Assembly: GCA_015522145.1 (NCBI GenBank) | Contig: WAMV01000007.1 | Span: forward strand, 15,470 to 79,469 | DNA: 64,000 nucleotides | Source: Candidatus Aenigmatarchaeota archaeon | GTDB lineage: Archaea > Aenigmatarchaeota > Aenigmatarchaeia > CG10238-14 > WAMV01 | Direction: 5' to 3' | Shown: positions 30,778-54,389 of the stretch, piece by piece | How positions within the stretch are numbered: the stretch's first letter is position 1 | How the letters are laid out: each line of letters opens with the position of its first letter | Made by a program: the position numbers and the translations under genes | The notes under the pieces: model-generated | What the model was told of the DNA's origin: nothing | The model's database searches: none | What the model saw: the letters and a program-made list of their open reading frames with translations, nothing else

Positions 30778-32922
30778 ATGGAACATTCCCATCATGACCA
30801 TGCTCATCATATGGAAGAATTTAAGAAAAAATTCATTATAGCAACTATACTAACGATACCAGTTCTTTTACTTTCAGAAACTATACAGCTTTGGCTGGGC
30901 TTTAGCTTTCAAATTCCTTATCAAAAATATGTTGTTCTTGCTTTAAGCTCTATTATTTATTTCTACGCAGGAATGCCTTTCTTGAAAGGTAGTTATAATG
31001 AATTGAAGGCAAGACAGCCAGGCATGATGACACTTGTTGCAAGCGCTATAAGCGTAGCTTATTTTTACTCTGTTTTTGTTGTGTTTACTGGTAGAGGTAG
31101 GGAATTTTTCTGGGAGCTAGCAACGCTTATAGATGTGATGCTTCTAGGTCATTGGATTGAGGCTAAAAGTGTTTTAGGAGCAAGTAAAGCTTTAGAAGAA
31201 TTAGCAAAGTTGATGCCAACCTACGCTCATCTAATCAAAAATGGCGAAGTTGTGGATGTAAGTGTAGAAGAGTTAAAGGTTGGTGATATAGTTTTGGTTA
31301 AGCCTGGGGAAAAAATACCTAGCGATGGTGTTATCATAGAAGGTTCTTCTTTTGTAAATGAAGCTTTACTAACTGGCGAGTCCAAACCTGTTAGCAAAAA
31401 GGAAGGTGATAAAGTTATAGCTGGTTCTATTAATGGTGAAGGAAGTTTAAAAGTTAAGGTAGAAAAAACTGGAAAGGATATTTACCTTGCCCAAGTAATG
31501 GAACTTGTTAAGCAAGCTCAGCAAAGCAAAAGCAGAACGCAAGATTTAGCTAATAAAGCAGCTTCCCTGTTGTTTTATGTTGCATTAATTTCTGGTATTA
31601 TTACTTATTCTGTTTGGAGTTTCTACGGCATGCCAGATGCAGCATTGGAAAGGACAGTAACAGTTTTAGTAATTGCATGCCCTCATGCTCTTGGCCTGGC
31701 TATTCCTCTTGTCGTTGCAATTTCTACAGCTATAACAGCTAAGCAAGGAATACTAATAAGGAATAGAAAAGCATTTGAGGAAGTTAAGGATGTTGATGTT
31801 GTTGTTTTTGATAAAACTGGTACGCTAACTCTTGGAGAGCTAGAAGTTAGCGATGTCTGGAGTAAGATTGATGAGAAAGAATTGCTTAGCTATGCTGCAA
31901 GCCTAGAAGTTCATTCTGAGCATATTATCGGAAGGGCAATAGTTGATTATGCTAAGAAAAAAGGCATAGAAATTAAACAAGTTAATGAATTTAAAGCCAT
32001 TCCTGGAAAGGGAGTCTTTGGCATCATAGATGGTAAAGAGATTTATGTGGGAAGTGAGGAATTGTTAAAAGACCTGGAGCTCCAAGAAACAAACGAAAAA
32101 ATAAAAGAATGGCAGAGCAAAGGAAAATCTATAATTTTTGTTGTTGTTAATAAAGAAGTAGTTGGGGCATTTGCTTTGGAAGACAAAATAAGAGAAGAGT
32201 CTTTGCAAGCAGTTGAAAAACTTAAGGAAATAGGAATAAAAGTTTACATGATAACAGGAGATGCTGAGGAAGTTGCTAAAGATGTGGCTACAAGGCTAGG
32301 AATAGACAATTTCTTCGCTAGAGTATTACCAGATCAAAAAGCAAACAAAATAAAAGAACTTCAAGAAAAAGGCTATAAAGTTGCCATGGTTGGTGATGGT
32401 ATAAATGATGCTCCAGCCTTAATGCAGGCTGATGTTGGTATAGCTATTGGCGCTGGCACAGATGTGGCTATAGAAAGTGCCGACATAATATTAGTAAGAA
32501 ATAATCCTCTGGATGTTGTTAAAATAATTAAAATAGCTAGAAGTGTTTACTCTAAGATGGTTCAGAATTTATGGTGGGCAGCAGGCTATAACATTATTGC
32601 AATACCTTTAGCTGCAGGAATACTAGCTAATTATGGAATAATAATTTCTCCAGCCATAGGAGCTATTTTAATGTCTCTAAGCACCATAATAGTTGCAATA
32701 AATGCGCAAACATTAAGAAAATTGGAGCCAAAAACTGAGGTAAAGGAAGTGGTTTATAGGGATGTTGTGTGTGGTATGAATGCAGAAAACTCTGACATTA
32801 AGTTTGAGTATGAAAACATAGTTTACCACTTCTGTTCTGAAAACTGCTTAAAAGAATTTAAGAAAAATCCTAAAAAATACTTAAAGGGTGGTTCTGAGCA
32901 TATGCACGCCCATCATCATTGA
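30778..32922 (+). CDS. copB: Copper-exporting P1B-type ATPase (CopB-like) with N-terminal His-rich stretch and C-terminal YHS/TRASH domain
   Basis: MEHSHHDHAHHM, CPH transmembrane motif, DKTGTLT, GDGINDAPAL. C-terminal CGM...HFCSENC TRASH/YHS. Confidence 0.85.
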   Translation: MEHSHHDHAHHMEEFKKKFIIATILTIPVLLLSETIQLWLGFSFQIPYQKYVVLALSSIIYFYAGMPFLKGSYNELKARQPGMMTLVASAISVAYFYSVFVVFTGRGREFFWELATLIDVMLLGHWIEAKSVLGASKALEELAKLMPTYAHLIKNGEVVDVSVEELKVGDIVLVKPGEKIPSDGVIIEGSSFVNEALLTGESKPVSKKEGDKVIAGSINGEGSLKVKVEKTGKDIYLAQVMELVKQAQQSKSRTQDLANKAASLLFYVALISGIITYSVWSFYGMPDAALERTVTVLVIACPHALGLAIPLVVAISTAITAKQGILIRNRKAFEEVKDVDVVVFDKTGTLTLGELEVSDVWSKIDEKELLSYAASLEVHSEHIIGRAIVDYAKKKGIEIKQVNEFKAIPGKGVFGIIDGKEIYVGSEELLKDLELQETNEKIKEWQSKGKSIIFVVVNKEVVGAFALEDKIREESLQAVEKLKEIGIKVYMITGDAEEVAKDVATRLGIDNFFARVLPDQKANKIKELQEKGYKVAMVGDGINDAPALMQADVGIAIGAGTDVAIESADIILVRNNPLDVVKIIKIARSVYSKMVQNLWWAAGYNIIAIPLAAGILANYGIIISPAIGAILMSLSTIIVAINAQTLRKLEPKTEVKEVVYRDVVCGMNAENSDIKFEYENIVYHFCSENCLKEFKKNPKKYLKGGSEHMHAHHH

Positions 32923-34452: not shown

Positions 34453-34962
34453 TTATCTCCTTGACCGTTTTATCCTCCTCTTTCTCCTAACCACCTTAGT
34501 TGTTCTAGCAGGCTTGGAACTGCTCATTGCAACAATTAGTATGAGGAGTAATAAAAATAAGAAGAAAAACATTCCAAAATACCAGAATCCCATACCCCAG
34601 CCCCAATATGGATACATCATCATACCACCCATCATGCCATAAGTTCCATAGTTGTTTACTCCTTCAAAAGTATATTGATTTTCCCCACAATATATTCTCC
34701 TAGCCATCAGTATATGCATTTGTCTTAAGCTTTCAGAGCCTTCGCCTCCCATCATCTGATCCATTATTTCATGAGCTTGGCCGGGATGCATTAATTCCAT
34801 GTAATAATCGCCTATAGCCTCAAGCTGCTCATCTGTAAGCTGAGAGCAGGGTACTTGCTGATTTATTATTTGTTCTATCTCAGTTACGTTCGCATCCGTA
34901 TGAGCAAAAACACTAGGTAGAATAGTTAAAAGTACCACCAATGTTATTGCGATTCTTTTCAT
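34453..34962 (-). CDS. Secreted Met/His-rich protein with C-terminal TM anchor, putative metal (Cu) binding
   Basis: Signal peptide, then HPGQAHEIMDQMMGG and MMGGMMMY Met clusters. C-terminal TM plus basic tail. Confidence 0.4.
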   Translation of the reverse strand: MKRIAITLVVLLTILPSVFAHTDANVTEIEQIINQQVPCSQLTDEQLEAIGDYYMELMHPGQAHEIMDQMMGGEGSESLRQMHILMARRIYCGENQYTFEGVNNYGTYGMMGGMMMYPYWGWGMGFWYFGMFFFLFLLLLILIVAMSSSKPARTTKVVRRKRRIKRSRR

Positions 34963-34994: not shown

Positions 34995-35459
34995 TTAGGC
35001 CCTTATAAAGGTAAATATGTTGCTGCCATCATAAGCATATATGGTAAACAAAGAGGTTTTAATTCCGGACATTCCTGGTGAGCCAGGAGGCATTCCAGGC
35101 AATGCTATTCCTTTTATGTTTGGTTTTTCCTCAAGTAATTTATTTATGGCTTCTATAGGCACATGACCCTCAACAAAATAATTGCCTATTTTAACAGTGT
35201 GACATGACCAAAGATTTTGGGGAATTCCTAGTTCTGTTTTTATTTGGACTAGTTGTGCTTCATTAACCTCTACAGAGTTTACTTGCAATCCAAAACCTCT
35301 TAAATAATTTTCATAAAGCTTGCAACATCCACATGTTGGCGAATAATATATCGTAATCGTATCAGAATAATTTGCTACAGGTCTAAAGAATTGAAATGAA
35401 AACATTACAGCCAAAAATATCAAGATTCCTAATGCTGCATATAGGGTTTTGTCTTTCAT
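34995..35459 (-). CDS. CopG/DUF411-like periplasmic metal-binding protein
   Basis: YYSPTCGCC motif matching the CxCC signature I recall for CopG/DUF411. Signal anchor. Confidence 0.5.
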   Translation of the reverse strand: MKDKTLYAALGILIFLAVMFSFQFFRPVANYSDTITIYYSPTCGCCKLYENYLRGFGLQVNSVEVNEAQLVQIKTELGIPQNLWSCHTVKIGNYFVEGHVPIEAINKLLEEKPNIKGIALPGMPPGSPGMSGIKTSLFTIYAYDGSNIFTFIRA

Positions 35460-35932
35460 TCTTTACAGCACTCCAGCATCTTTTTCAGTATTTTTACAAA
35501 ATTTCTGTTTGAAAATCCTATTTTTTCTGATTTAAATTTCTTCAGGTTTAACTGCCAAAACAATGAATAAAGGTAAAATGCGTCCTCAAAAGCCTCTTTG
35601 GCCATTTTCTCATTTCCTTTGGAAAGGTACTTGTTACCTGTTTCTATTAGACGCATAGATGCTGCTAAAAGATGTTTAGAAATACACCAAACCTCGCCTT
35701 CTGGATCTTTTACTATTTCTTTCATAAACTTCTTTCTTATCTTTCTAACATTTTCTATAAGGTCTAAGTAAATTTTCTTATTTGTTTTTATGGCGGTAAA
35801 GAAAAGATGTTCCTCTATAGATATCAAATTCATTAACCCAATGCTTAAGTCTTCTTCTAGCGATAGGTCTTTCATCTCTTTCATTTTGTTAACTTTTTCA
35901 AGCAATTCCTTAGCGTTTTTAGCTCTTTTCAT
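35456..35932 (-). CDS. Hypothetical cytoplasmic protein
   Basis: 158 aa, no family recognised. Confidence 0.35.
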   Translation of the reverse strand: MKRAKNAKELLEKVNKMKEMKDLSLEEDLSIGLMNLISIEEHLFFTAIKTNKKIYLDLIENVRKIRKKFMKEIVKDPEGEVWCISKHLLAASMRLIETGNKYLSKGNEKMAKEAFEDAFYLYSLFWQLNLKKFKSEKIGFSNRNFVKILKKMLECCKE

Positions 35933-35935: not shown

Positions 35936-36406
35936 TCACCACCAAAACAAAAACAATATGCTAACCAAGGTTAGTGTTAAAAGTGTTATAACAATAGATT
36001 GGTAGCCTATTTTTTTGGGAAGTGATTTTGCAACATTAAGCACTAATAAAGTTAGAATAGCACCTATCAGGATGGATAAAGTAAGCCTGTCTATCCCAAA
36101 AATCATATGATAAGAAACTATACCCGCATAATAGAATGGAATTATTGTCAAGCCCAAAGCTAGGAAAACTAATAAAACTGTTAATCCTGGATTTTCGTTT
36201 TTGTTTATTACTCTGTCCATCCATAATGCCGTTGAAATTATAAAAGCTCCTAACCACAAACCAACTATAGAATCATTAACACCATAAAATCTTGCAACCA
36301 TTACAGCTGTGCCAGTAGCAGCTGTGCACAATGGACAGTGAGCTAAGCTTGGTTGAGCTAAAAGCGTGCTCATCATTATTGCAAAAACAATTAAAGCAAT
36401 TTTCAT
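35936..36406 (-). CDS. Membrane protein with signal peptide and N-terminal HCPLC motif
   Basis: Likely start at the internal ATG at 36406 (MKIALIVF...LAQPSLA|HCPLC). Three to four TM segments. Confidence 0.4.
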   Translation of the reverse strand: MKIALIVFAIMMSTLLAQPSLAHCPLCTAATGTAVMVARFYGVNDSIVGLWLGAFIISTALWMDRVINKNENPGLTVLLVFLALGLTIIPFYYAGIVSYHMIFGIDRLTLSILIGAILTLLVLNVAKSLPKKIGYQSIVITLLTLTLVSILFLFWW

Positions 36407-36456
36407 GATAAAAAAGTGGTGTGAAACAACTTTTAAGGGTTGGTGTGAAACTAGTT

Positions 36457-36912
36457 TCACTTGGCTATTATTAGATTTGTCATACCTCTCCTTTTTCTTT
36501 CTATGAGGCCTTTTGCTTCCAAGCTGTCAAGGATTCTGGTAACTTTAGATTTGGAAAACCCTGTTTCTTTTATAATTTCGGATTGAAAAATTGCATTGCC
36601 AGACTTTTTTATTAGCCCAAAAACCTTTTTCTCATCTGGATTGAGCTTTGCTAGCTGCTTCTTCAGCTTTAAGGAAGGTGAGGTAAGAAGCAAATAAAAG
36701 CCTAAAGCTCCCAAAAGTGTGGAGATTGTTATACCTAAGTAAGTTTGTGGTGGAATGTAATCTTCATGAGGACAAGCACTTGCATTTGCATTGCAAACAT
36801 CTTCACAAATTTGAGAGGAGTAATAAACAATGCTACTGGTTGTAACATAAGTAAAGTAAAGAGTTATTAGGGCCATTACCATTAAAGTGTAGCCCAAAAT
36901 TGTGTTTTTCAT
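36457..36912 (-). CDS. Membrane-tethered winged-helix transcriptional regulator with Cys-rich extracytoplasmic loop
   Basis: TM1, then CEDVCNANASACPHEDY, then TM2, then a wHTH (IFQSEIIKETGFSKSKVTRILDSLEAKGLIERKRRG). Confidence 0.5.
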   Translation of the reverse strand: MKNTILGYTLMVMALITLYFTYVTTSSIVYYSSQICEDVCNANASACPHEDYIPPQTYLGITISTLLGALGFYLLLTSPSLKLKKQLAKLNPDEKKVFGLIKKSGNAIFQSEIIKETGFSKSKVTRILDSLEAKGLIERKRRGMTNLIIAK

Positions 36913-36934: not shown

Positions 36935-37258
36935 TTAAATTTTTTTCCAAACTGCTACTATTCCAGCTATTAAGAATGTGATAGCTAAAGGAAGAATGAT
37001 GAAGCCTGTGAATGGAGAAATTATTAGGAGGAATAAGGCGTAGATTAGTGTTATAGCTCCAACTACCCTCATCCACTTCTGCAAATAAAGCAAAACAACA
37101 AAAATTATGCCTATGCCTGTAAACAAATAGCTTATTAGCGCAATACCAGCAAAAATAACACCTATTAAGCCTAGATCCTTAAAAGCAAAGAAAAAGGTTG
37201 AAAGCGCTAATTGAATTATTATTCCTATAGCAGCTATTATCCAGCTGCCTTTTTTCAT
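36935..37258 (-). CDS. Small polytopic membrane protein
   Basis: 107 aa, three TM. Confidence 0.4.
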   Translation of the reverse strand: MKKGSWIIAAIGIIIQLALSTFFFAFKDLGLIGVIFAGIALISYLFTGIGIIFVVLLYLQKWMRVVGAITLIYALFLLIISPFTGFIILPLAITFLIAGIVAVWKKI

Positions 37259-37343
37259 TAAAGGAAATTTAAAATTGGGGTATATTTAACTTTTACGGAA
37301 ATTTTTATATCTTGCTAATTTGCCTATTAAATAAGGTGAAACT

Positions 37344-42921: not shown

Positions 42922-43723
42922 GCTTACCTAAGTATATTCCATCGAGCGAATAAATTTCTGCTTCATTCAAATCCAAGAAGTCTTTAGAGACAAAAAAGAA
43001 ATTTTCTATACTATCTCTGTTTAAAACCAAACTACCAAGTAATGAATTGAATGCTGGTAAAATTATTATCTCTAAATTTCCCAGCTTTCTTAATCTTAGT
43101 GCATCTTTTATTTTTTGTTTGTTCAGTTTTGATTTAACCCAAACTCTTATCCTTCTAGTATACCCCATTTCATCTTTTATTTCAATGCCTGGCTGCAAGT
43201 GACCACAAAAAATAATATCGCAAAAATATGCTCTCAAATCTGGTGATGAGCTTCCGTGAAAAAAATAGTATTTGCTTAAAACAAATCCTTTTTGATCAAA
43301 GATTTTAAACTCTGGTAATATGTTTTCTAGTTTCCCGTCATGATTTCCTTTTACTATAAAAATGTCTTCAAAATGTTTTTTTAAATCTAAAAAGAAAGAA
43401 CGAATAAATTTTTCCTCTTTGTATGTTGCTATACCTATGCTATGCTTAACATCCCCTAAAACTATCAGCTTGTTTGCCTTGGTTTTTTGAGCTAGCTCTA
43501 TTAGGGTTTTTTTCATTTTTTCGTGAACTGGCTTTATGTTAACCCCCTTCTCTCTATACTCTTCTTCTATACCTAAATGTAAATCAGAAATTACCAGAGA
43601 GTTTAGAGGTTTGACATAGCAAGCTGGATATCCTTTCAGGAATTTTACTTTCATTAATTTTTTATTTAACACAACAACTTTAATTTTATGAGAATACTTG
43701 GAGAGGTAGTTTCTGAACCCCAT
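42899..43723 (-). CDS. Calcineurin-like metallophosphoesterase (SbcD/Mre11-related small phosphoesterase)
   Basis: ISDLHLG, VLGDVKH and GNHDG motifs. Confidence 0.6.
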   Translation of the reverse strand: MGFRNYLSKYSHKIKVVVLNKKLMKVKFLKGYPACYVKPLNSLVISDLHLGIEEEYREKGVNIKPVHEKMKKTLIELAQKTKANKLIVLGDVKHSIGIATYKEEKFIRSFFLDLKKHFEDIFIVKGNHDGKLENILPEFKIFDQKGFVLSKYYFFHGSSSPDLRAYFCDIIFCGHLQPGIEIKDEMGYTRRIRVWVKSKLNKQKIKDALRLRKLGNLEIIILPAFNSLLGSLVLNRDSIENFFFVSKDFLDLNEAEIYSLDGIYLGKLKHFLSI

Positions 43724-47470: not shown

Positions 47471-48702
47471 ACAAATCTACCAAGAGTTTTTTGTTTGTTG
47501 GTTAAAATGTTTAATGCTTTATCAACATCTTCTTCCAAAATCCTCATTATTTCTTCGTAGTCAATCAAATTAAAGTCAAACCCCATAGCTTCTAGATTCT
47601 TCCTTAGAATATTTGCGGAAATTTCCTCTATTGATAAAGATTTGTCCCTTATCTCCCTTAATAGCTCAATACTTTTCCTGTATTCCTCAGAAATTATTTC
47701 TTTAGAAATTTTGACTATGGCTTTTTCTTTGAATTGATTTTCTATCTTTTTTATATTAGCTTCCCATGTTTGGTTAGCTTTTGTAATTACTTTAACCTTT
47801 ATTATGGGTTTTTTAGAAAATTGCTGAGAAAGTGCTTTAGATATTTTCTCCTTTATATCATCTTCGCTTACAACATCCTTTCTAATCTCTAGATAAATGA
47901 ACTTTCTTTGATTTTTAAAGGGTATGAATTGAATATCAAAATTATTTTCGTTGATAGTTATTTTGTAGTACCCCTTTTCTTCCTCAGATTCGTTTTTTTC
48001 AAATTGAGTGACTATGGAGCTTCCTGTTATGAGTAGGGTTGTGTTCCCTATTTTATCAATAGCTTTTTTATGAACATGTCCATTTATAATCAAATCAAAA
48101 CCTTTTGGTAAATCCCCAATTCTAATGCTTGGTATGTCTAGGGGCGAATATACATAGGGGTGTACATTCTGATGAAGCATTAATATATTAAAAGCGTTCT
48201 CCAAAGGCTTTGGATTCCAATTTTGAAGCATTTGTAACGCATAAGCTTCTGGTACATTGCTCATACCAAATATAGCCACTTTCATGTCATCTTTCTCAAA
48301 AACCAATCTGTTTTGATGTAGATGGATTAAAAATCCTCCCCTCTCTAAAGCTTGAACGGGATTTATTTCACTTCTTGTTCTTCTTTCATGATTTCCATGC
48401 AAAGCAATAACAGGAATTGAGCTAAGAGTTTTTGATGAAGAATCGAGTAGCTCTTTATCTGCATCTATAAGCTTAATTTTGGATTTTCCTTTTAAAGGAA
48501 CTGAAAATACTTGCAAAGCTTTACCCCAAGTTGCTGTTCTTGGACTTCTGCTATCAAATATATCACCAGCTACCAGAATCAAATCACAATCCAGCATATT
48601 TTCAAAAGCTTCTCGAGCTAACTCAAAGCTATCGTTTTCATACTCTGTATTGTAACCAAAACCCAGGTGCAAATCTGAAATTACTCCAATCTTTATAGAC
48701 AT
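47467..48702 (-). CDS. mre11: DNA double-strand break repair nuclease Mre11
   Basis: ISDLHLG, GDIFDSR and HGNHE phosphoesterase motifs. Confidence 0.9.
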   Translation of the reverse strand: MSIKIGVISDLHLGFGYNTEYENDSFELAREAFENMLDCDLILVAGDIFDSRSPRTATWGKALQVFSVPLKGKSKIKLIDADKELLDSSSKTLSSIPVIALHGNHERRTRSEINPVQALERGGFLIHLHQNRLVFEKDDMKVAIFGMSNVPEAYALQMLQNWNPKPLENAFNILMLHQNVHPYVYSPLDIPSIRIGDLPKGFDLIINGHVHKKAIDKIGNTTLLITGSSIVTQFEKNESEEEKGYYKITINENNFDIQFIPFKNQRKFIYLEIRKDVVSEDDIKEKISKALSQQFSKKPIIKVKVITKANQTWEANIKKIENQFKEKAIVKISKEIISEEYRKSIELLREIRDKSLSIEEISANILRKNLEAMGFDFNLIDYEEIMRILEEDVDKALNILTNKQKTLGRFV

Positions 48703-48740
48703 AATTAACTTTTTATAAGAAACTAATTAATCTTAAGTAT

Positions 48741-50132
48741 ATGCGCAGCCTCAGTTTATCTAATATCTTGTTTTACGGTAGCGCTCTAACAATTTCCTTT
48801 CTGATATTGACTTTCATTTCACCCTTTAATCTAACTCTATTTGTCCAATATTATTTATCAAGTAGACCTGACATAGTCCTCATGGGATTAATTGTAATAG
48901 TGGCATTTTCTTACTCCTTATCGTATTTCATGGAATATTTAGCAAAGAGATTTGAATTCTTGTTAAAACCTTATAAAAATTTGTTTGTTGTCAGCTCTGT
49001 TGTGTTTTACATAATTTCATTTGTTTTAATGTTAGGCAACACATCTTACAACATTTTTTCTTATGTTGAGATGAACAACTTCATTTATACACTTCTCAAC
49101 TTTATTCTTTTAGCTCCTATTATAGCATATACATCCCTCTTTCTAGTCAACATTTTTGCATCAATAAAAGACAATACCATCAGGACATTTGGATCAGGCG
49201 GTCTACTAGCAGGCTTATTTTCAATGGGTTGTCCTACATGTGGTGCATTACTCTACTCACTAATAGGATTGAGTGCGGGCTTAACCTTATTTCCATTAAA
49301 CGGGCTAGAGATAAGGCTTGTCTCTCTTGGTCTCTTAGTTTATGCTTCCACAAAAATAACTCCTAAATTGTGTAAAGAATGTTTAGCTCCTAGAAGAAAA
49401 AACCAATTTGAAATAGTCGGCACAAGACCTTTGTTTGATAGTATAACAGACAAAATAATTCTAATTTCCTTTGTTGCCATGATTGGTTTAATAGGTTTTA
49501 ACCAACTACAAATACAAATGATAAACTCTTCTATTACATCACTTTCTTTAGCAGCTTTCGGAAGAGTTTCGGGAGCAAATTTAGATAATGTTGATGTTTA
49601 TAAAGTAAGTTCAACGGCTATGGCTATAGCTACGGTATTTCCAGAAATAAAGTCTGTATCTAGTATAGATGAAATAGCAAGTATTTTAATTCCAACCGGG
49701 ACCCCAGAATATAGTGAAGCTTTAGGAGGCATCACTTTTGATGATATTCCAAATTCATTAACATATTTATCCCGATGGTATTTCCAATTGAAAGATGAAG
49801 TAAAGAATAACGATCCCGAAACATGGCAGAGATACTTGAAGTTGGCAGCAGCTCCAAGAGGCATTAGCTGTGAGTTTTGTTGTGGTGTAGGACCTCAAGG
49901 TATAACTAGTGATGGAAACTTGAGATGTGGATGCTCGCATAATATTGCGTTACAAGCTTTAACATTAGGATTAATGAAGTACACGGATTATAGTGATGCT
50001 GAAATATTAAGAGAAGTGTTAAGATGGAAGGCGGCTTTCTTCCCAAGAGGAATGGTTAATCTAGCTGCCCAGACAATAGGCCAAGATCCCTCCCAGTTGG
50101 GTTCTCTTCCTGGAATGGTTGGTGGTTGCTAA
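48741..50132 (+). CDS. Polytopic membrane protein with intramembrane GCPTCG motif, Cys-rich C-terminal domain and ...LPGMVGGC* terminus
   Basis: About 8 TM. CPTC sits in a TM segment. CEFCCGVGP and CGCSHN clusters. The terminal motif is shared with the next ORF. Confidence 0.45.
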   Translation: MRSLSLSNILFYGSALTISFLILTFISPFNLTLFVQYYLSSRPDIVLMGLIVIVAFSYSLSYFMEYLAKRFEFLLKPYKNLFVVSSVVFYIISFVLMLGNTSYNIFSYVEMNNFIYTLLNFILLAPIIAYTSLFLVNIFASIKDNTIRTFGSGGLLAGLFSMGCPTCGALLYSLIGLSAGLTLFPLNGLEIRLVSLGLLVYASTKITPKLCKECLAPRRKNQFEIVGTRPLFDSITDKIILISFVAMIGLIGFNQLQIQMINSSITSLSLAAFGRVSGANLDNVDVYKVSSTAMAIATVFPEIKSVSSIDEIASILIPTGTPEYSEALGGITFDDIPNSLTYLSRWYFQLKDEVKNNDPETWQRYLKLAAAPRGISCEFCCGVGPQGITSDGNLRCGCSHNIALQALTLGLMKYTDYSDAEILREVLRWKAAFFPRGMVNLAAQTIGQDPSQLGSLPGMVGGC

Positions 50133-50166
50133 AAATTTAAAAGGTATATAAACCATTTATATTGTT

Positions 50167-50406
50167 ATGAAAAGCAGGCAGAAGTTTGTTAGTGGCTGGG
50201 TTTTAATTCTAATTACATTAGTAATGATAACAATAACAGCTGTACAAGCTTATCAGTTAATGAACCTTCAGTCTCAAATTTTAACACTGTCCGAATCTTT
50301 AAAAGAATATAAGCCAGTCACGTCAACTTTATCTTCACCAGGTTCAAGCACTTCTCTCCTTCAGCAAAATTTACAAAATTTACCATCTATGGTAGGCGGT
50401 TGTTAG
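50167..50406 (+). CDS. Small single-pass membrane protein ending ...LPSMVGGC*
   Basis: 79 aa with N-terminal TM. The last 12 residues align with the C-terminus of the upstream protein. Confidence 0.4.
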   Translation: MKSRQKFVSGWVLILITLVMITITAVQAYQLMNLQSQILTLSESLKEYKPVTSTLSSPGSSTSLLQQNLQNLPSMVGGC

Positions 50407-50420
50407 AGAGGTGAATTAAG

Positions 50421-51800
50421 TTGAAAATGAAAAAACAAAAACTCTACTTTATATTTTTCGTTTCTATTCTTTTTGTTTTAGTCGTTTATAATTATTATTT
50501 GGCTCAACACACACAAACTCTAATTAATTTGGTTAATAGCCAAATCGAGGAGTTAAAAAAGCCCGTTAACTTAAAAATGATTATAATAGATGCCAATTGT
50601 GATGTTTGTTTCGATATAAAAGAGGTTGTAGATAACATTAGAAGTAATGAAAGAATAAACGTAACAGAAGTCGAAGTTTATTCTTTAACTGACAGTGATG
50701 TTAGAGCTCTAGTTTTATCATATTCCATAGATAGGCTTCCAACCGTGATACTAGAGGGTGAAATAGATAAAGTTCAGCTAGCAGGTTTTGAGAATAAAGG
50801 AAGCGCTTTAGTATTTACTGCTATAAACCCTCCCTACTACGATACTAAAAGTAAGAAAGTAGTTGGTTTAGTTAAAGCCATATACATAAATGCCAGTTAC
50901 TGTGATTTGTGTCGAGAAAATTATCAGACCATAGAATTTCTAGAGCAAAATGGTGTTGTTTTTGAATCTAAGCTTTTCTTAGATATAAACTCTTCACAGG
51001 CCCAACAAATAATAAACACATATAATTTAAAGAGTATTCCGGTGTTATTGTTATCTCAAGACATAGAAGCTTATAACATACAATTATCTGACTTAGGCCT
51101 AAATAAAGTGAATGATTTCTATATTGTCTATTCAGCACCACCTTATGTAGATTCTGAAAGTGGTGAGATTAGAGGCTTAGCTGAGCTTATTCTTTTGAGA
51201 AACAGTTCTTGCGACCAATGTTATGATGTTTCAATACATTCGGAGATTTTAAGAAATAGGTTTGGTGTAGCTATTATTAACGAAACTTATGTTGAAGTAG
51301 ATTCGGAATTTGGTCAACAACTCATTTCTAAGTATAATATAACAAAGATTCCAACGATCATAATTTTGGGTGATTTAGAACCATACACAGCTCTTAATAA
51401 TATATGGCCTAATGTGGGAAGCATTGAAAATGATGGAGCTTATGTTTTTAGAAATATGGATGCTTTGGGTAATGCTGTTTATATAGATCTAACGTTAAAC
51501 AAAATTGTTGGAGCTGAAGAAGTTAGAGAAATAGTAATAGCAGGTTCCGACTTCAACTTTACTCCCAACGAGATTAGAGTAAAAGTAGGTGAAAAGGTTA
51601 GAATAGTGTTTAGAAATGAAGGTGAAGTTGGACATAATTTGGTCATAGAAGGTTATAATATAGGAACTAATGTCATTCCGTCTGGGGCGACACAACCAAT
51701 AGAGTTTGTAGCAGACCAAGTAGGAGAGTTTGCATTCTACTGTAGTGTACCGGGTCACAGAGATTTAGGGATGGAAGGTTTGCTAATAGTTGAAGAGTAA
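50421..51800 (+). CDS. Secreted multidomain redox protein: three thioredoxin-like domains (CDVC, CDLC, CDQC) plus a C-terminal type-1 copper cupredoxin domain
   Basis: Each repeat has CDxC followed by a cis-Pro loop (RLPTVIL, SIPVLLL, KIPTIIIL). The C-terminal HNLVIE...FYCSVPGHRDLGM matches plastocyanin/azurin ligands. Confidence 0.6.
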   Translation: MKMKKQKLYFIFFVSILFVLVVYNYYLAQHTQTLINLVNSQIEELKKPVNLKMIIIDANCDVCFDIKEVVDNIRSNERINVTEVEVYSLTDSDVRALVLSYSIDRLPTVILEGEIDKVQLAGFENKGSALVFTAINPPYYDTKSKKVVGLVKAIYINASYCDLCRENYQTIEFLEQNGVVFESKLFLDINSSQAQQIINTYNLKSIPVLLLSQDIEAYNIQLSDLGLNKVNDFYIVYSAPPYVDSESGEIRGLAELILLRNSSCDQCYDVSIHSEILRNRFGVAIINETYVEVDSEFGQQLISKYNITKIPTIIILGDLEPYTALNNIWPNVGSIENDGAYVFRNMDALGNAVYIDLTLNKIVGAEEVREIVIAGSDFNFTPNEIRVKVGEKVRIVFRNEGEVGHNLVIEGYNIGTNVIPSGATQPIEFVADQVGEFAFYCSVPGHRDLGMEGLLIVEE

Positions 51801-51853: not shown

Positions 51854-52486
51854 TTGCTCCTTATGGAAATGAAAAATTTGGTTAAGAAAACTGGTACAAC
51901 AACAGTGGGTATTGTATGCAAGGATGGTGTAGTGGTGGCTGCAGAAAAAAAAGCTACTATGGGTCATCTAGTAGCTTCTAAAGAGGCAAAGAAAATATTT
52001 GCCCTAAACGATAGAATAATGCTCACAACAGCTGGACTATCTGCAGATAATGATTCATTGGTTAGAGTACTTAGAGCAGAAATAAAGCTCTATGAATTGC
52101 AACATAAGAAAAGAATAAGCGTTGGTGCTGCAGCAACTTTGCTTTCAAACATACTTTACTCTGGTAGGTGGACATTCATACCTTACATGGTTCAACTGAT
52201 AATAGCTGGTATTGATGAAAAACCAAGGCTATATGATTTAGATGCTTATGGAGCCAAAGAAGAACAAACAACGTTTTTTGCTACAGGCTCTGGTTCACCT
52301 TTTGCTCTTGGCGTTTTGGAAGCTGGTTATAGTAGGGATATAAGCGTGAAGGAAGCTGAAGAGTTGGCAATAAAAGCAATAAAATCTGCTGTTGAAAGAG
52401 ATATAGGCTCTGGAGGAAATGCTATAGATATTGGTATAGTAACTGAGAGAGGTATAGAGATTAAGACAATTCCTTTGCAGAAATAA
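51854..52486 (+). CDS. psmB: Proteasome subunit beta
   Basis: Propeptide, then TTTVGIVCKDGVVVA, the Thr1 nucleophile context. Confidence 0.9.
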   Translation: MLLMEMKNLVKKTGTTTVGIVCKDGVVVAAEKKATMGHLVASKEAKKIFALNDRIMLTTAGLSADNDSLVRVLRAEIKLYELQHKKRISVGAAATLLSNILYSGRWTFIPYMVQLIIAGIDEKPRLYDLDAYGAKEEQTTFFATGSGSPFALGVLEAGYSRDISVKEAEELAIKAIKSAVERDIGSGGNAIDIGIVTERGIEIKTIPLQK

Positions 52487-52517
52487 AAATTAATTTTCCT
52501 TTTGGAGGTGAAGAATT

Positions 52518-54389
52518 TTGGAAATTCTAGAGAAGCTTAAGGAAATTTTCCCAAAGGGAAGTATAAGCAAGATTGAGTTAGAGGCATCTGAAATTATAGT
52601 CTACACAAAAAACAAAGAGTTTTTCTTAAATTATGAGCCTTACGTTAAGGAAGCCGTAAGTCAGTTAAAGAAGAGAATTGAAGTCAGAGCTGAAAAAGAG
52701 TTGCTTATGGAAAAATCTGAAACTAAAAAGAAAATACAGGAAATTGTGCCTAAAGAGGCTCAGATAAACAAAATATATTTTGAGCCTGAGAGAAGCATAG
52801 TAATAATCTCTGCTGTAAAACCTGGCTTAGTTATAGGCAAAGGAGCAGAGAACCTTAAGAAAATAAAAAAATCCACTTTCTGGACGCCACGTGTAGAGAG
52901 AATTCCGCCAATAAAGTCTGATGTGGTAGCTGCTATAAGAAAGATGATGCACACAGAAATTAGATTCAGAAAAAAGTTTTTGAACAATGTTGGTAAGAGA
53001 ATTTTTGAAAAAAGAGAAACGAATAGGAAGTGGGTAAGGATAATTGGCTTAGGTGGGTGGGGGGAAGTTGGCAGAAGTTGTACGCTTGTAGAAACTCCTA
53101 AATCCAAGGTGCTTATAGATTGTGGTATAAGTGTTGGTGGCAAAGATCCAAACACAATGTATCCTTATCTTTACACAAAAGAGTTTGATCCTAATGAAAT
53201 AGATGCCATAATTTTAAGCCATGCCCACTTAGACCATTGTGGAATGATACCTTATTTGTATGAGATGGGTTATGACGGGCCTCTTTATGCAACTACACCA
53301 ACAATAGATTTGTTTGCTTTGCTATCATTGGATTATATAGACGTGTTGCAAAAAAGTGGTAAAAATCCTATCTACACAGCTAAAGGTGTTAAGGAAGCGG
53401 TTAGACATGCTATAATGCTTGAGTATAATGAAGTTACAGATATAAGCCCAGACATAAGATTAACTTTCCAAAATGCTGGCCATATATTGGGCTCAGCTTT
53501 GGTTCATTTGCACATAGGTAATGGGTTGCACAACATACTTTACGCTTTAGACCAGAAATTTGGAAGGAGTAATTTGCTAGAGCCTGCTTCAACAAATTTC
53601 CAAAGAGTTGAGACCTTGATAATAGAATCAACTTACGGTGCTAAAGAAGATGTGATGCCTCCTAGAGCTGAAGTAGAAAAACAATTAATGGAAGTTGTCA
53701 ACAGAACGATGGAAAGGAATGGTATTGTGCTCATTCCAAGCTTTTCCGTAGAAAGGGCTCAGGAAGTTATGGTAATACTGGCTAAGCATGGTTTTAGCTA
53801 TCCTGTTTACTTAGATGGTATGATTTGGGATGCTAACGGTATATTTACCGCATACCCAGAATATTTGTCAAAGTATATGCAAAAGCTTATTTTTAGTGGC
53901 AATGACCCATTCACAAACCCAATTTTTAAGAGAATAACAACAAGGCAAGAAAGAGAAAAGGTTTGGGAAGATAGACCTTGTGTAATAATTTCTACCAGCG
54001 GAATGCTTGTTGGAGGCCCAGCAATAGAGCACTTAAAGCATTTAGGTGGAGATGAAAGAAACACATTAGTTTTTGTAGGATTCCAAGCAGAAGGTACTTT
54101 AGGTAGGAGAATACAACGTGGCTTAAGGGAAATTCCTTTTGAAAACGATGAAGGTAAAACTGAAGTGCTCGAGCTAAAAATGGAGGTTGTTAGCATAGAA
54201 GGTTTGTCTGGCCACTCTGACAGAAGGCAACTGCTTGCATATGTTAATAATTTGCCTGTTAAGCCAAGAAAAATAATTTTGGTGCACGGAGATTACAGAA
54301 AAATGATAAGCTTGCAAGCCGCTTACCAAAAACTTTTTGGAATAGAAACTTACAGGCCAATAAATCTTGAAAGCATAAGAGTTGTTTAG
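52518..54389 (+). CDS. aCPSF1 / FttA (KH-KH-MBL-beta-CASP ribonuclease, transcription termination factor)
   Basis: Two N-terminal KH domains, HAHLDHCG motif, beta-CASP domain, 623 aa. Confidence 0.85.
   Translation: MEILEKLKEIFPKGSISKIELEASEIIVYTKNKEFFLNYEPYVKEAVSQLKKRIEVRAEKELLMEKSETKKKIQEIVPKEAQINKIYFEPERSIVIISAVKPGLVIGKGAENLKKIKKSTFWTPRVERIPPIKSDVVAAIRKMMHTEIRFRKKFLNNVGKRIFEKRETNRKWVRIIGLGGWGEVGRSCTLVETPKSKVLIDCGISVGGKDPNTMYPYLYTKEFDPNEIDAIILSHAHLDHCGMIPYLYEMGYDGPLYATTPTIDLFALLSLDYIDVLQKSGKNPIYTAKGVKEAVRHAIMLEYNEVTDISPDIRLTFQNAGHILGSALVHLHIGNGLHNILYALDQKFGRSNLLEPASTNFQRVETLIIESTYGAKEDVMPPRAEVEKQLMEVVNRTMERNGIVLIPSFSVERAQEVMVILAKHGFSYPVYLDGMIWDANGIFTAYPEYLSKYMQKLIFSGNDPFTNPIFKRITTRQEREKVWEDRPCVIISTSGMLVGGPAIEHLKHLGGDERNTLVFVGFQAEGTLGRRIQRGLREIPFENDEGKTEVLELKMEVVSIEGLSGHSDRRQLLAYVNNLPVKPRKIILVHGDYRKMISLQAAYQKLFGIETYRPINLESIRVV

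What the first reader, a model, noticed from the sequence alone, without database searches (positions are those of the whole stretch)
48741..51800. Candidate extracytoplasmic thiol-redox/copper module: CPTC membrane protein, small tagged protein and a triple-thioredoxin-cupredoxin fusion
Three co-directional genes sit 34 and 14 nt apart. The first is an ~8-TM protein with an intramembrane GCPTCG and a Cys-rich soluble domain (CEFCCGVGP, CGCSHN). The second is the 79-aa MVGGC-tailed protein. The third is a 459-aa secreted protein with three thioredoxin-fold repeats, each with a CDxC active site and a cis-Pro loop. It is fused to a type-1 blue-copper domain with His, Cys, His, Met ligands in FYCSVPGHRDLGM.

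I have not seen a Trx x3 + cupredoxin architecture described. The membrane CxxC protein could be a DsbD/CcdA-like electron conduit feeding it.
Basis: partly seen in the sequence, partly recalled or inferred. Interest (0 to 1): 0.58.

Follow-up and report, generated by a model that had tools for sequence, protein, structure and literature searches.

The report
DPANN cysteine-arm, thioredoxin and copper module
These three genes are one copy of a module found in hundreds of tiny DPANN archaea: two unannotated surface proteins ending in the same invariant ...[M/Q]VGGC cysteine tail, plus a membrane-anchored triple thioredoxin, usually beside copper-handling genes; its chemistry is unknown.

Summary
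Three co-directional genes encode:
- a 7-TM protein with an intramembrane GCPTCG and a Cys-cluster ectodomain (g1);
- a 79-aa protein (g2);
- a membrane-anchored triple thioredoxin fused to a type-1 cupredoxin (g3).

The trio is not a one-off. A scan of species-representative genomes found g1 relatives in 222 genomes. All but one of the 80 loci fetched are labelled archaeal, mostly DPANN lineages. In the 82 loci analysed:
- 67 carry the small partner, 66 the triple thioredoxin, and 51 a true CcdA/DsbD_TM gene;
- 50 carry copper-linked genes (CopG/DUF411, cupredoxins, CopA/B, YHS permease).

g1 and g2 share a nearly invariant C-terminal LPx[M/Q]VGGC-COOH. The M/Q position always matches between partners (75 M/M, 3 Q/Q, no mixed pairs).

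The g1 family has no Pfam, NCBIfam or PDB match. Its N-terminal membrane domain is not a detectable CcdA homologue. However, loci with that domain mostly lack CcdA (1 of 10, against 50 of 73).

Best reading, by inference: a CcdA/thioredoxin-type reducing relay outside the cell keeps two cysteine "swinging arms" reduced for copper handling. The relay logic is known; the client proteins are new. Function is untested.

The parts
48741..50132 (+). g1 ('G1', long form): 7-TM N-terminal domain, membrane stalk, Cys-cluster ectodomain and C-terminal arm
   Evidence: ORF. 108 homologues. 295 clusters at 50 % identity in a library-wide profile search. AF2 pLDDT 85.8. No Pfam, NCBIfam or PDB match.
48741..49445 (+). 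g1 N-terminal 7-TM domain (residues 1-235). It is present in only about 28 of the 108 homologues and in 10 of 83 loci.
   Evidence: Topology from the AF2 helices and the positive-inside rule. Not homologous to CcdA, c14 or c10.
49041..49079 (+). Conserved outer loop TSxxxFSYxEMNG (residues 101-113)
   Evidence: Conservation over 37 long forms.
49227..49244 (+). Invariant intramembrane GCPxCG (residues 163-168) in the middle of TM5
49371..49382 (+). Cytoplasmic-face CKEC (residues 211-214) after TM6. A CxxC is present here in only about 40 % of long forms.
49869..49943 (+). Cys cluster CEFCCG...CGCSHN. C377, C380, C381, C396, C398 and H400 are invariant.
   Evidence: Alignment A1 invariant columns. 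Conserved in distant representatives.
50106..50129 (+). C-terminal arm LPGMVGGC-COOH of g1
   Evidence: Near-invariant in 103 sequences. Disordered in the AF2 model, pLDDT about 40.
50167..50406 (+). g2 ('SMALL'): signal/anchor helix, Ser/Thr/Gly-rich linker, and the arm NLPSMVGGC-COOH
   Evidence: A partner of this kind was found in 67-77 of the related loci, depending on the detection method, mostly immediately downstream of G1. Its TM and juxtamembrane region is homologous to that of G1 (hhalign 95.6 %).
50380..50403 (+). C-terminal arm LPSMVGGC-COOH of g2
   Evidence: Its M/Q state co-varies with the G1 arm.
50421..51800 (+). g3 ('TRX3-Cup'): N-terminal anchor, three thioredoxin-fold units, and a T1 cupredoxin. 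The start could be the ATG at 50427.
50598..50609 (+). CxxC of Trx unit 1 (CDVC, residues 60-63)
50901..50912 (+). CxxC of Trx unit 2 (CDLC, residues 161-164)
51210..51221 (+). CxxC of Trx unit 3 (CDQC, residues 264-267)
51495..51797 (+). Cupredoxin domain (residues 359-459) with T1 ligands H405, C441, H446 and M451
   Evidence: Pfam Cupredoxin_1 and Copper-bind. Foldseek. Ligand-by-ligand alignment to 6tfd and 2dv6.
36457..36912 (-). Membrane-anchored MarR-type regulator with a Cys motif. It is the first gene of a cassette that lies directly upstream of G1 in L001 and L005-L007.
   Evidence: Pfam MarR_2/DUF7343. Present in 25 loci.
35936..36460 (-). 'c14' membrane protein with HCPLCT just after its signal-like helix
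   Evidence: Present in 13 loci. No Pfam match.
35456..35932 (-). 'c25' protein ending in ...ECCKE
   Evidence: Present in 9 loci. No Pfam match.
34995..35459 (-). DUF411/CopG homologue (CGCC, H, PGMPPGSPGM motifs)
   Evidence: HMM built from locus homologues, E = 3.6e-56. DUF411 (Pfam-confirmed in L001 and L085) sits beside G1: between G1 and SMALL in L001, upstream of G1 in L085. DUF411 found in 28 of 82 loci.
34453..34962 (-). 'c29' secreted or anchored Met/His-rich protein
   Evidence: Present in 8 loci.
30778..32922 (+). CopB-like P1B-ATPase: His-rich N-terminus, CPH motif, C-terminal TRASH/YHS-like Cys motif
   Evidence: Read from the translation. Homologues in 13 loci. Not scanned against Pfam.

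Best explanation
The three genes are the local copy of a module conserved among DPANN archaea. Its core has four parts:
1. **G1**: a surface-exposed helical domain with an invariant CxxCC...CxCxH cluster and a flexible C-terminal LPG[M/Q]VGGC-COOH arm.
2. **SMALL**: essentially G1's membrane helix and arm without the domain.
3. **TRX3**: a membrane-anchored, PDO-like protein with three CxxC thioredoxin units.
4. **CcdA**: present in most genomes.

**Proposed mechanism.** Every step is inferred, not shown.
- Reducing equivalents cross the membrane through CcdA. In 'long' G1 proteins such as this one, they may instead cross through the fused 7-TM domain, which has a mid-membrane GCPxCG.
- They reach TRX3 on the outside.
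- TRX3 keeps the terminal cysteines of the two arms and the G1 Cys cluster reduced.
- The two arms act as swinging thiolate carriers that bind the same partner site.
- Their cargo is most likely copper, handled between CopA/B exporters, CopG and cupredoxins.
- In this genome the cupredoxin (an electron-transfer T1 site) is fused to TRX3, coupling thiol chemistry and copper redox chemistry in one polypeptide.
For: **Shown here.**
- Conservation and gene order G1-SMALL-TRX3(-CcdA) hold in most of the 82 loci analysed, drawn from 222 species-level genomes with a relative. SMALL is in 67, TRX3 in 66 and CcdA in 51.
- CcdA is confirmed as Pfam DsbD_TM.
- TRX3 relates to two-unit PDO proteins, and all three CxxC motifs and cis-Pro residues are at least 90 % conserved.
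- N-in/C-out anchors place G1's domain, SMALL's arm and TRX3 outside the cell.
- The arm is conserved in about 250 family members. Tail counts among the 142 further representatives: 74 MVGGC and 24 QVGGC.
- G1 and SMALL arms co-vary perfectly: 75 M/M, 3 Q/Q, no mixed pairs.
- M<->Q switches at least 18 times on a rough tree. Together with the co-variation, this implies a shared binding partner.
- Copper context: 50 of 82 loci hold DUF411, a cupredoxin, CopA/B or a YHS permease.
  - DUF411 sits between G1 and SMALL in several loci.
  - L085 reads G1-SMALL-TRX3-CopZ-CopA.
  - TRX3 is fused independently to T1-type (window, L008) and CuA-type (L059) cupredoxins.
- The window itself carries the partner cassette and a CopB-like ATPase at 30-37 kb.
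- Long-form loci rarely have CcdA: 1 of 10 against 50 of 73.

**From the literature.**
- CcdA homologue SoxV reduces thioredoxin SoxW, and thiol-disulfide oxidoreductase SoxS rescues the carrier SoxYZ (PMC10451225 and its refs 11-15).
- TlpA reduces ScoI and CoxB before Cu insertion (PMC6669012).
- CopG/DUF411 is a copper-induced Cu oxidoreductase (PMC12341060; PMC8872213 ref 71).

**From my own knowledge.** Met/Gln is the classical natural alternation of the axial ligand in blue copper sites (plastocyanin versus stellacyanin).
Against: - No biochemical datum exists for any component.
- The G1 ectodomain has no homologue or structural analogue of known function, so metal binding is only guessed from its Cys/His pattern.
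- AF2 does not dock the arm anywhere; the tail pLDDT is about 40.
- Copper genes are absent from the +/-7 kb flanks of 32 of 82 loci, and there is no background control for how often they occur near random DPANN genes.
- The M->Q replacement could equally mean that Met is a recognition residue rather than a ligand.
- CcdA and long-form G1 co-exist in L021, and the cytoplasmic CxxC is present in only about 40 % of long forms. This weakens the conduit idea.
- The complementary distribution is based on flanks only, not whole genomes, and is not corrected for phylogeny.
Confidence: 0.42

Rival explanations
1. Dedicated cupredoxin maturation system, analogous to TlpA/ScoI/PcuC. TRX3 reduces the Cys ligands of CuA- or T1-type cupredoxins. 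G1 and SMALL are the metallochaperones that insert copper with their arms.
For: - 25 of 82 loci hold a cupredoxin. 17 of these carry the CuA motif CxxxCxxxHxxM, whose Cys pair must be reduced before metallation (PMC6669012).
- Cupredoxins sit directly beside TRX3 or G1 (L003, L006, L007, L036, L065-67) or are fused to TRX3.
- PcuC also uses a flexible C-terminal extension to carry a second Cu (PMC6669012).
- CuA-only 'nosZ-like' cupredoxins are known in DPANN (PMC10936187).
Against: - The module is found far more often than a neighbouring cupredoxin: 57 of 82 loci have none within 7 kb.
- A maturation factor permanently fused to its one-time client would be unusual.
- G1 shows no similarity to Sco or PCuAC; no Pfam or NCBIfam hit of any kind.
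Confidence: 0.2
2. Oxidative pathway. TRX3 is a surface DsbA/PDI-like disulfide donor. G1 is a new sulfhydryl oxidase (a helical domain with CxxC plus a shuttle cysteine on a flexible tail, as in Erv2/Ero1). It passes electrons to a cupredoxin instead of a quinone, which DPANN lack.
For: - G1's domain is all-alpha with a CxxC(C) motif and a mobile Cys arm.
- Cupredoxins are high-potential acceptors and are fused to, or adjacent to, TRX3.
- No DsbB or VKOR was recognised among the neighbours.
- The Erv2/Ero1 comparison is from my own knowledge.
Against: - The commonest fourth gene is CcdA, which in known systems delivers electrons outward, i.e. a reductive pathway.
- The window has a separate DsbA-like gene.
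- There is no flavin or other cofactor motif.
- No terminal oxidase is found in the loci.
Confidence: 0.12
3. The LPx[M/Q]VGGC-COOH tail is a processing or anchoring signal. Examples would be C-terminal Cys lipidation with carboxyl-methylation, or a sortase-like LPx...G transpeptidation. In that case G1 and SMALL are substrates of, or enzyme plus substrate for, a dedicated sorting system.
For: - An eight-residue invariant C-terminal motif is typical of sorting signals.
- It resembles LPXTG, by my own reading.
- An ICMT/PEMT-family methyltransferase lies at 33643-34332.
- Lgt-like genes occur in 9 loci.
- SMALL has a cleavable-looking VQA|xQL site.
Against: - In about 1 Mb of related loci plus the window, the tail occurs only on G1 and SMALL, so it is not a general signal.
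- No hydrophobic segment or basic tail follows it, unlike known sortase and exosortase signals.
- The ICMT-like gene is in only 2 loci.
- No transpeptidase-like fold was recognised.
Confidence: 0.1
4. The g1 N-terminal 7-TM domain is a thiophilic-metal transporter of the MerC/MerT or CPx type rather than an electron conduit. Metal captured by the ectodomain and arm is handed to the mid-membrane CPxC and on to the cytoplasmic CxxC.
For: - A mid-membrane G-C-P-x-C-G sits in a kinked helix, with a cytoplasmic-face CxxC in about 40 % of members.
- By my own knowledge, this resembles MerC's TM1 'GCAAC' plus a cytoplasmic Cys pair, and the CPx motif of P1B-ATPases.
- The neighbouring 'c14' and 'c10' membrane proteins have similar motifs (HCPLCT, ACC).
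- The context is metal-related.
Against: - There is no Pfam MerC/MerT hit.
- The complementary distribution with CcdA points to redox substitution.
- No cytoplasmic acceptor is identified.
Confidence: 0.12
5. Sulfur-carrier system. The GGC-COOH arms carry persulfide or thiosulfonate like SoxY's GGCGG arm, with TRX3 and CcdA as the SoxS/W and SoxV equivalents.
For: - The C-terminal Gly-Gly-Cys arm; a few members end in ...GGCG.
- The architecture carrier + periplasmic Trx + CcdA matches SoxYZ/SoxS/SoxW/SoxV (PMC10451225).
- A rhodanese lies in L085 and DoxX in about 10 loci.
Against: - No Sox or other sulfur-oxidation enzymes occur in any locus, whereas copper genes dominate.
- G1 is alpha-helical, whereas SoxY is, by my own knowledge, an Ig-like beta protein.
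Confidence: 0.04

Closest known systems
SoxV (CcdA) - SoxW/SoxS (periplasmic thioredoxins) - SoxYZ (carrier with a C-terminal GGCGG swinging arm)
   Same: - A CcdA-family membrane protein, an extracytoplasmic Trx-fold reductant and a protein whose functional residue is a cysteine on a Gly-rich flexible C-terminal arm.
- All are encoded together.
   Different: - G1 and SMALL are unrelated to SoxY in sequence and predicted fold.
- There are two arm proteins instead of one.
- The Trx is a three-unit PDO-like protein.
- The neighbours are copper genes, not sulfur genes.
- The hosts are archaea.
TlpA - ScoI - PcuC - CoxB (CuA assembly in Bradyrhizobium)
   Same: - A membrane-anchored extracytoplasmic thioredoxin keeps the Cys ligands of Cu chaperones and a cupredoxin reduced.
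- One chaperone uses a flexible C-terminal extension.
- CuA-type cupredoxins are nearby in many loci.
   Different: - No Sco or PCuAC homologues are present.
- There is no cytochrome oxidase.
- The thioredoxin is triplicated and sometimes fused to the cupredoxin.
- The module occurs in many loci without a cupredoxin.
Protein disulfide oxidoreductase (PDO) of thermophilic archaea and Aquifex (1A8L, 1J08, 2YWM)
   Same: Tandem Trx-fold units, each with its own CxxC. This is the best profile match of TRX3: E = 3e-8, two units aligned.
   Different: - PDO has two units and is, by my own knowledge, cytoplasmic.
- TRX3 has three units and an N-terminal membrane anchor, and is predicted to face outward.
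- Its CxxC motifs are C-[DEK]-x-C.
DsbD/CcdA/ScsB transmembrane thiol-disulfide conduits
   Same: - A polytopic membrane domain with essential-looking intramembrane cysteines, feeding an extracytoplasmic thiol system.
- It is nearly mutually exclusive with CcdA in the loci.
   Different: - There is no sequence or profile similarity.
- It has one CPxC in a single helix instead of one Cys in each of two pseudo-symmetric helices.
- It has 7 TM helices.
- It is covalently fused to its putative client.
CopG (DUF411) and cupredoxin-type copper resistance proteins (CopI, CupA, CusF context)
   Same: - Cys-rich extracytoplasmic proteins encoded beside Cu exporters.
- A CxCC-type motif plus His/Met.
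- A real DUF411 gene is interleaved with the module.
   Different: - G1 is not homologous to DUF411 (hhalign 0.4 %).
- G1 is helical, not Trx-fold.

Membership tests
Thioredoxin-fold / PDO-like (g3 units 1-3) | CxxC at the N-terminus of helix 1 in each unit | tested here: met
   CDVC 60-63, CDLC 161-164, CDQC 264-267. All six Cys are at least 90 % conserved in 34 homologues.
Thioredoxin-fold / PDO-like (g3 units 1-3) | Conserved cis-Pro loop before strand 3 | tested here: met
   P107, P207 and P311 are near-invariant or invariant. The cis conformation itself is not testable.
Thioredoxin-fold / PDO-like (g3 units 1-3) | Profile and structure similarity to Trx-fold proteins | tested here: met
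   - Pfam Thioredoxin_3 scores 25.5 bits against a cut-off of 24.8.
- NCBIfam hits: PDO 5e-11, thioredoxin 6.9e-8, TrxC 1.9e-6.
- The family profile matches 1j08, 1a8l and 2ywm.
- AF2 gives a beta-alpha-beta-alpha-beta pattern at pLDDT 93.
- Foldseek's top list was filled by cupredoxin hits, so Trx hits were not inspected.
Type-1 (blue) cupredoxin (g3 C-terminal domain) | Cupredoxin beta-sandwich fold | tested here: met
   Pfam Cupredoxin_1 44.4 bits (cut-off 27) and Copper-bind 37.7 bits (cut-off 21.2). Foldseek 4hcf, 2cua and 1ibz: TM 0.63-0.90, rmsd 1.4-2.0 A.
Type-1 (blue) cupredoxin (g3 C-terminal domain) | His...Cys-x4-His-x4-Met ligand set at the canonical positions | tested here: met
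   H405, C441, H446 and M451 align with the His/Cys/His/Met of the N-terminal cupredoxin (plastocyanin-like) domain of nitrite reductase 6tfd/2dv6. The 3-D geometry of the model could not be inspected because no coordinates were returned.
Type-1 (blue) cupredoxin (g3 C-terminal domain) | About 600 nm charge-transfer band and small A-parallel in EPR | not testable with these tools
   Needs expressed protein.
DsbD/CcdA (g1 N-terminal membrane domain) | Match to DsbD_TM / DsbD_2 profiles | tested here: not met
   No Pfam or NCBIfam hit at E <= 1. hhalign against 45 DPANN CcdA sequences gives probability 2.9 %.
DsbD/CcdA (g1 N-terminal membrane domain) | Two essential Cys, one in each of two pseudo-symmetric TM helices (PCxxP-type motifs) | tested here: not met
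   A single GCPxCG in one helix (TM5). No second conserved TM cysteine.
DsbD/CcdA (g1 N-terminal membrane domain) | Transfers electrons from cytoplasmic thioredoxin to extracytoplasmic Trx-like proteins | not testable with these tools
   Only indirect evidence: CcdA is present in 1 of 10 long-form loci against 50 of 73 short-form loci.
VKOR / DsbB (g1) | Profile match; 4-TM bundle with loop Cys pair plus CxxC | tested here: not met
   No Pfam hit. No Foldseek PDB hit better than E = 0.1.
MerC / MerT (g1 N-terminal domain) | Profile match to the MerC/MerT families | tested here: not met
   No Pfam hit. The resemblance of GCPxCG to MerC's TM1 motif is recalled from memory only.
SoxY-type carrier (g1 and g2 arms) | C-terminal GGCGG on an Ig-like SoxY fold, paired with SoxZ | tested here: not met
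   The tail is [M/Q]VGGC-COOH. G1's domain is alpha-helical. No SoxY or SoxZ hit. Functional analogy only.
CopG / DUF411 (g1 ectodomain) | Profile similarity to DUF411 | tested here: not met
   hhalign probability 0.4 %. A true DUF411 gene exists separately at 34995-35459.
Sortase / exosortase-type sorting signal (tails) | Motif followed by a hydrophobic helix and a basic tail; present on many different cargo proteins | tested here: not met
   The Cys is the last residue. The tail is found only on G1 and SMALL in the window and the related loci fetched (83, incl. duplicate L002).

The most novel reading that the evidence does not exclude
G1 and SMALL define a previously unrecognised class of paired, extracytoplasmic 'C-terminal cysteine arm' proteins in archaea. 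They would work like SoxY or DsrC but be unrelated to them, and would be serviced by a surface triple thioredoxin. The 7-TM GCPxCG domain fused to G1 in this genome would be a new kind of transmembrane thiol (or Cu) conduit that can stand in for CcdA.
Probability: 0.3. Interest if true: 0.85.

Novelty: new variant of a known kind. Interest (0 to 1): 0.68.

Why it matters
DPANN archaea have tiny genomes and live attached to hosts. A module kept in hundreds of their species, with residues invariant down to the last amino acid, is likely to matter for their cell-surface chemistry.

- It involves two protein families with no annotation and no structural analogue.
- If the model is right, it shows how organisms without quinones, cytochromes or low-molecular-weight thiols manage thiol and copper redox chemistry outside the membrane.
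- It would add a new swinging-arm carrier.
- It may add a new transmembrane redox or metal conduit to the short list of known ones (DsbD/CcdA, DsbB, VKOR, MerT/C).
- It gives a concrete context for the enigmatic CuA-only 'nosZ-like' cupredoxins reported in DPANN.

Tried and rejected
- **Homologue search with the g1 N-domain alone** returned nothing, not even the 96 %-identical P0001. I treat this as a tool artefact, not as evidence.
- **Homology tests for G1.** hhalign of the g1 N-domain against CcdA, c14 and c10, and of the G1 ectodomain against DUF411, cupredoxin and c14, were all negative.
- **Literature.** A search for 'MVGGC' found nothing relevant. The CopG structure paper (PMC7415965) is not held, so it is cited second-hand.
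- **Prenyl-Cys/ICMT idea.** Prompted by the ICMT/PEMT-like gene at 33643-34332, but downgraded because that gene is in only 2 loci.
- **Read-through or selenocysteine after the tail.** Considered and dropped. The stops are TAA and TAG, followed by unrelated sequence.
- **Recent duplication of the tail.** Rejected. The two tail-coding stretches differ at synonymous sites (ATGGTTGGTGGTTGC against ATGGTAGGCGGTTGT).
- **Scanning metagenomes for the back-translated tail.** Considered and not run, because too many chance matches are expected.

Full report
**1. What is in the window**

The ORF list and the raw sequence confirm three co-directional genes:
- g1: 48741-50132, 463 aa
- g2: 50167-50406, 79 aa
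- g3: 50421-51800, 459 aa, TTG start. An ATG at 50427 would give the 457-aa form found in databases.

The gaps are 34 and 14 nt. From my reading of the translations, the neighbours are archaeal housekeeping genes: HerA-like, Rad50 and Mre11 upstream, and proteasome beta and an aCPSF1-like beta-CASP nuclease downstream. GC content is about 34 %. The names attached to homologues point to DPANN archaea.

**2. g3: triple thioredoxin plus cupredoxin**

Thioredoxin units:
- Pfam and NCBIfam place Trx-type models on each of three units. These are Thioredoxin_3 and PDO on unit 1, thioredoxin on unit 2, and TrxC and Thioredoxin_8 on unit 3.
- In 34 homologues all six CxxC cysteines and the three loop prolines are at least 90 % conserved.
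- A family profile hits the solved two-unit protein disulfide oxidoreductases 1J08, 1A8L, 2YWM and 2HLS, with two units aligned at once.
- AlphaFold2 gives pLDDT 93.1, an N-terminal helix (residues 2-46) and three beta-alpha-beta-alpha-beta units.

Cupredoxin domain (residues 359-459):
- Pfam hits Cupredoxin_1 (1.8e-11) and Copper-bind (2.9e-9).
- Foldseek finds cupredoxins at rmsd 1.4-2.0 A: 4HCF, the CuA domain 2CUA, nitrosocyanin and CupA.
- H405, C441, H446 and M451 align exactly with the ligands of the N-terminal cupredoxin (plastocyanin-like) domain of Hyphomicrobium nitrite reductase.

The one exception is that the protein is anchored by a Lys-rich N-terminus and a TM helix, so it is not free.

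**3. g1: a new family**

- g1 has no Pfam or NCBIfam hit, and nor do any of 103 relatives.
- A family profile finds nothing in the PDB sequences.
- The confident AF2 model (pLDDT 85.8, pTM 0.81) has no Foldseek match in the PDB.

Topology, from the model's helices and from K+R counts over 37 homologues, is 7 TM with N-in and C-out:
- inside loops average 1.6-4.9 K+R per sequence;
- outside loops average 0.35-0.84.

The invariant GCPxCG (residues 163-168) lies in the middle of TM5. A conserved outer loop reads TSxxxFSYxEMNG. A cytoplasmic CxxC after TM6 (CKEC here) is present in only about 40 % of members.

After a seventh helix and a stalk comes an all-alpha ectodomain:
- C377, C380, C381, C396, C398 and H400 are invariant, and so are G320, P322, Y324, R364, E425, W429, K430, P435 and M438.
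- The last eight residues, LPGMVGGC, are at least 90 % conserved.

**4. The tail and the small partner**

- Nearly every one of 108 homologues ends in LPGMVGGC.
- A profile search of 1.84 billion representative proteins finds 295 clusters. CxxCC, CGCxH and the tail are kept even in remote members. Among the 142 further representatives the tail reads MVGGC in 74 and QVGGC in 24.
- g2 ends in NLPSMVGGC. Nothing else in the 64-kb window carries this tail.
- SMALL proteins share a consensus: signal/anchor helix ending ...VQA|xQL, a Ser/Gly/Thr-rich linker, then lPxsIxNLPxMVGGC.
- Their helix and juxtamembrane segment is homologous to that of G1 (hhalign 95.6 %). SMALL therefore looks like G1 without its globular domain.
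- The two tail-coding stretches in the window differ at synonymous sites. Their identity is maintained at the protein level.

**5. Conservation across genomes**

A scan of species-representative genomes with the G1 alignment found relatives in 222 genomes. The 80 loci fetched carry labels such as Woese-, Pace-, Micr-, Iain-, Aenigm- and Altiarchaeota and Nanoarchaeia. Some are labelled Methanosarcinales and one is labelled a bacterium (L044); I suspect these labels are wrong but did not check.

In the 82 loci analysed:

| Neighbour | Loci |
|---|---|
| SMALL | 67 by clustering; 77 of 84 loci examined by tail detection (that count includes the window and duplicate locus L002) |
| TRX3 | 66 |
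| CcdA-like membrane protein | 51 |

- The commonest gene order is G1-SMALL-TRX3-CcdA.
- The CcdA-like protein carries ...SPC...P and ...WSPCVGP motifs, and Pfam confirms it as DsbD_TM (7.7e-14).
- Many missing genes are explained by contig ends.

**6. Two forms of G1, and CcdA**

- Most G1 proteins are 'short': one TM helix plus the ectodomain.
- The 7-TM domain is an add-on found in about 28 of 108 proteins and in 10 of 83 loci.
- hhalign finds no relationship of this domain to DPANN CcdA (2.9 %), nor to two other Cys-motif membrane proteins of the neighbourhood.
- CcdA is present in 1 of 10 long-form loci against 50 of 73 short-form loci (Fisher p = 6e-4).
- No CcdA is detectable anywhere in the 64-kb window.

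Its limits are as follows:
- it rests on +/-7 kb flanks;
- it is not phylogenetically corrected;
- it is contradicted by L021, which has both.

A metal-transport role, like MerC/MerT or a CPx-type site, fits the same features.

**7. Copper context**

- 50 of 82 loci contain at least one copper-linked gene. These are DUF411/CopG (28), cupredoxin (25: 17 with the CuA motif CxxxCxxxHxxM, 4 T1-like, 5 CxMxM), CopA/B ATPase (12) and YHS/TRASH permease (9).
- DUF411 sits between G1 and SMALL in L001, L005, L007, L009-L011 and L026.
- L003 reads MarR-cupredoxin(CuA)-x-G1-SMALL-TRX3-PadR/TRASH.
- L085 reads DUF411-c29-rhodanese-MarR-G1-SMALL-TRX3-CopZ-CopA.
- TRX3 is fused to a T1-type cupredoxin in the window and in L008. 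It is fused to a CuA-type cupredoxin in L059 and to a truncated, probably CuA-type one in L050. P0113 is a two-Trx-plus-cupredoxin form.
- Independent fusions to two cupredoxin types argue for a direct functional link.

The window itself carries the other half of the system on the minus strand at 34.4-36.9 kb:
- MarR-with-TM, c14 (HCPLCT membrane protein), c25 (...ECCKE), DUF411 and c29. This is the cassette that lies immediately upstream of G1 in L001 and L005-L007.
- Beside it are a CopB-like ATPase with a His-rich N-terminus and a TRASH-like C-terminus, and a DsbA-like protein.

Literature:
- CopG/DUF411 is copper-induced and described as a Cu(I)/Cu(II) oxidoreductase (PMC12341060; PMC8872213 citing Hausrath 2020).
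- CuA-only 'nosZ-like' cupredoxins have been noted in DPANN (PMC10936187).

**8. Co-variation of the two arms**

- Where G1 ends in QVGGC, its SMALL partner also ends in QVGGC. This holds in L077, L084 and L085.
- All 75 other pairs are M/M, and there are no mixed pairs.
- On a rough NJ tree of 202 ectodomains with the tail removed, the M/Q state changes at least 18 times.

The two arms are therefore read by the same partner (a pocket, an enzyme, or each other), and only Met or Gln is tolerated. From my own knowledge, Met/Gln is the natural alternation of the axial ligand in blue copper sites, which fits a Cys plus Met/Gln copper-binding arm. The pattern fits a pure recognition role equally well.

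**9. Mechanism**

The best-supported model is a reductive extracytoplasmic thiol relay:

CcdA (or the fused 7-TM domain) -> TRX3 -> Cys arms and Cys cluster of G1/SMALL

The arms would act as swinging carriers in copper handling.

Shown here:
- gene association;
- domain identities of TRX3, the cupredoxin and CcdA;
- predicted outward topology;
- conservation and co-variation of the arms.

Inferred:
- the direction of electron flow, from CcdA's known role (SoxV->SoxW and TlpA precedents; PMC10451225, PMC6669012);
- the arm cysteine as TRX3's target;
- copper as cargo;
- the N-domain as a conduit.

Rivals, each given in its own section with a refuting test:
- dedicated cupredoxin maturation;
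- an oxidative Erv/DsbB-like pathway that uses a cupredoxin as its electron sink;
- the tail as a sorting or lipidation signal;
- a Mer-like metal importer;
- a SoxY-like sulfur carrier.

**10. Comparison and novelty**

- In its logic the module works like SoxV/SoxW/SoxS-SoxY or CcdA/TlpA-Sco/PcuC-CuA.
- By membership, only TRX3 (Trx fold, PDO-like), the cupredoxin and the CcdA of other loci belong to known families.
- G1, its 7-TM domain and SMALL fail every membership test I could run.
- I found no description of the tail or of the Trx x3-cupredoxin architecture in the searchable literature. That library is incomplete.
- I rate it a new variant of a known kind of system, built around new protein families, and of above-average interest.
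- The function remains a hypothesis.

Noticed in passing
window 30172-37928: A metal/oxidative-stress island: DUF3105 protein with a C2H2 finger, CopB-like ATPase (CPH motif, His-rich N-terminus, TRASH-like C-terminus), DsbA-like CPFC protein, ICMT/PEMT-family methyltransferase, c29, DUF411/CopG, c25, c14, MarR-with-TM, and Fe/Mn SOD. Part of it is contiguous with G1 in other genomes.
   Followed up: partly
window 33643-34332: An ICMT/PEMT-family membrane methyltransferase lies near proteins that end in a C-terminal cysteine. This is tempting for prenyl-Cys methylation. However, the gene is found in only 2 of 83 loci, so it is probably unrelated.
   Followed up: yes
window 50409-50429: The g3 start is ambiguous. 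The candidates are TTG at 50421 (459 aa) and ATG at 50427 (457 aa, as in database entry P0109). A GAGGTGA Shine-Dalgarno-like motif at 50409-50415 fits either.
   Followed up: partly
window 48703-48740 and 50133-50166: AT-rich TATA-like boxes (TTTTTATAAG; TTTAAAAGGTATATAA) lie about 20-30 nt upstream of the g1 and g2 ATGs. This suggests leaderless transcripts and possibly a separate promoter for the small gene.
   Followed up: no
window 43688-48702: A HerA-like ATPase (+), Rad50 (-) and Mre11 (-) DNA-repair cluster lies directly upstream, divergent from g1. Proteasome beta and an aCPSF1-like nuclease lie downstream (51854-54389). These assignments come from reading the translations only.
   Followed up: no
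L003:712-1152, L036:9694-10134, L059:8065-9534 and others: Small lipobox-bearing cupredoxins with a full CuA motif (CxxxCxxxHxxM) but no oxidase or NosZ catalytic domain sit next to the module. They match the 'nosZ-like' DPANN proteins of PMC10936187. Lgt-like genes occur in 9 loci.
   Followed up: partly
L001:1847-2784: A second, divergent G1/SMALL pair lies in the same locus: a 257-aa protein ending LPAMRGGC followed by a 54-aa protein ending LPDMVGGC. The pair can therefore be duplicated as a unit.
   Followed up: no
G1, SMALL and TRX3 membrane helices (e.g. window 49455-49530, 50200-50260, 50440-50520): All three anchors carry a conserved Asn/Gln at the outer end of the helix (FNQxQI, VQAxQL, N in TRX3). 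hhalign links G1 to SMALL at 95.6 % and G1 to TRX3 at 42 %. This may drive assembly of a membrane complex.
   Followed up: partly
L035, L045, L053: In some loci a CuA-type cupredoxin occupies the position after SMALL where TRX3 normally sits. A small single-Trx-like 'c6' protein is nearby in L053 (none was clustered in L035 or L045).
   Followed up: no
(tool behaviour): A homologue search with g1 residues 1-235 alone returned no hit, although P0001 is 96 % identical over this region. This is probably a filter artefact on hydrophobic sequence, so the absence of stand-alone N-domain homologues is not established.
   Followed up: no
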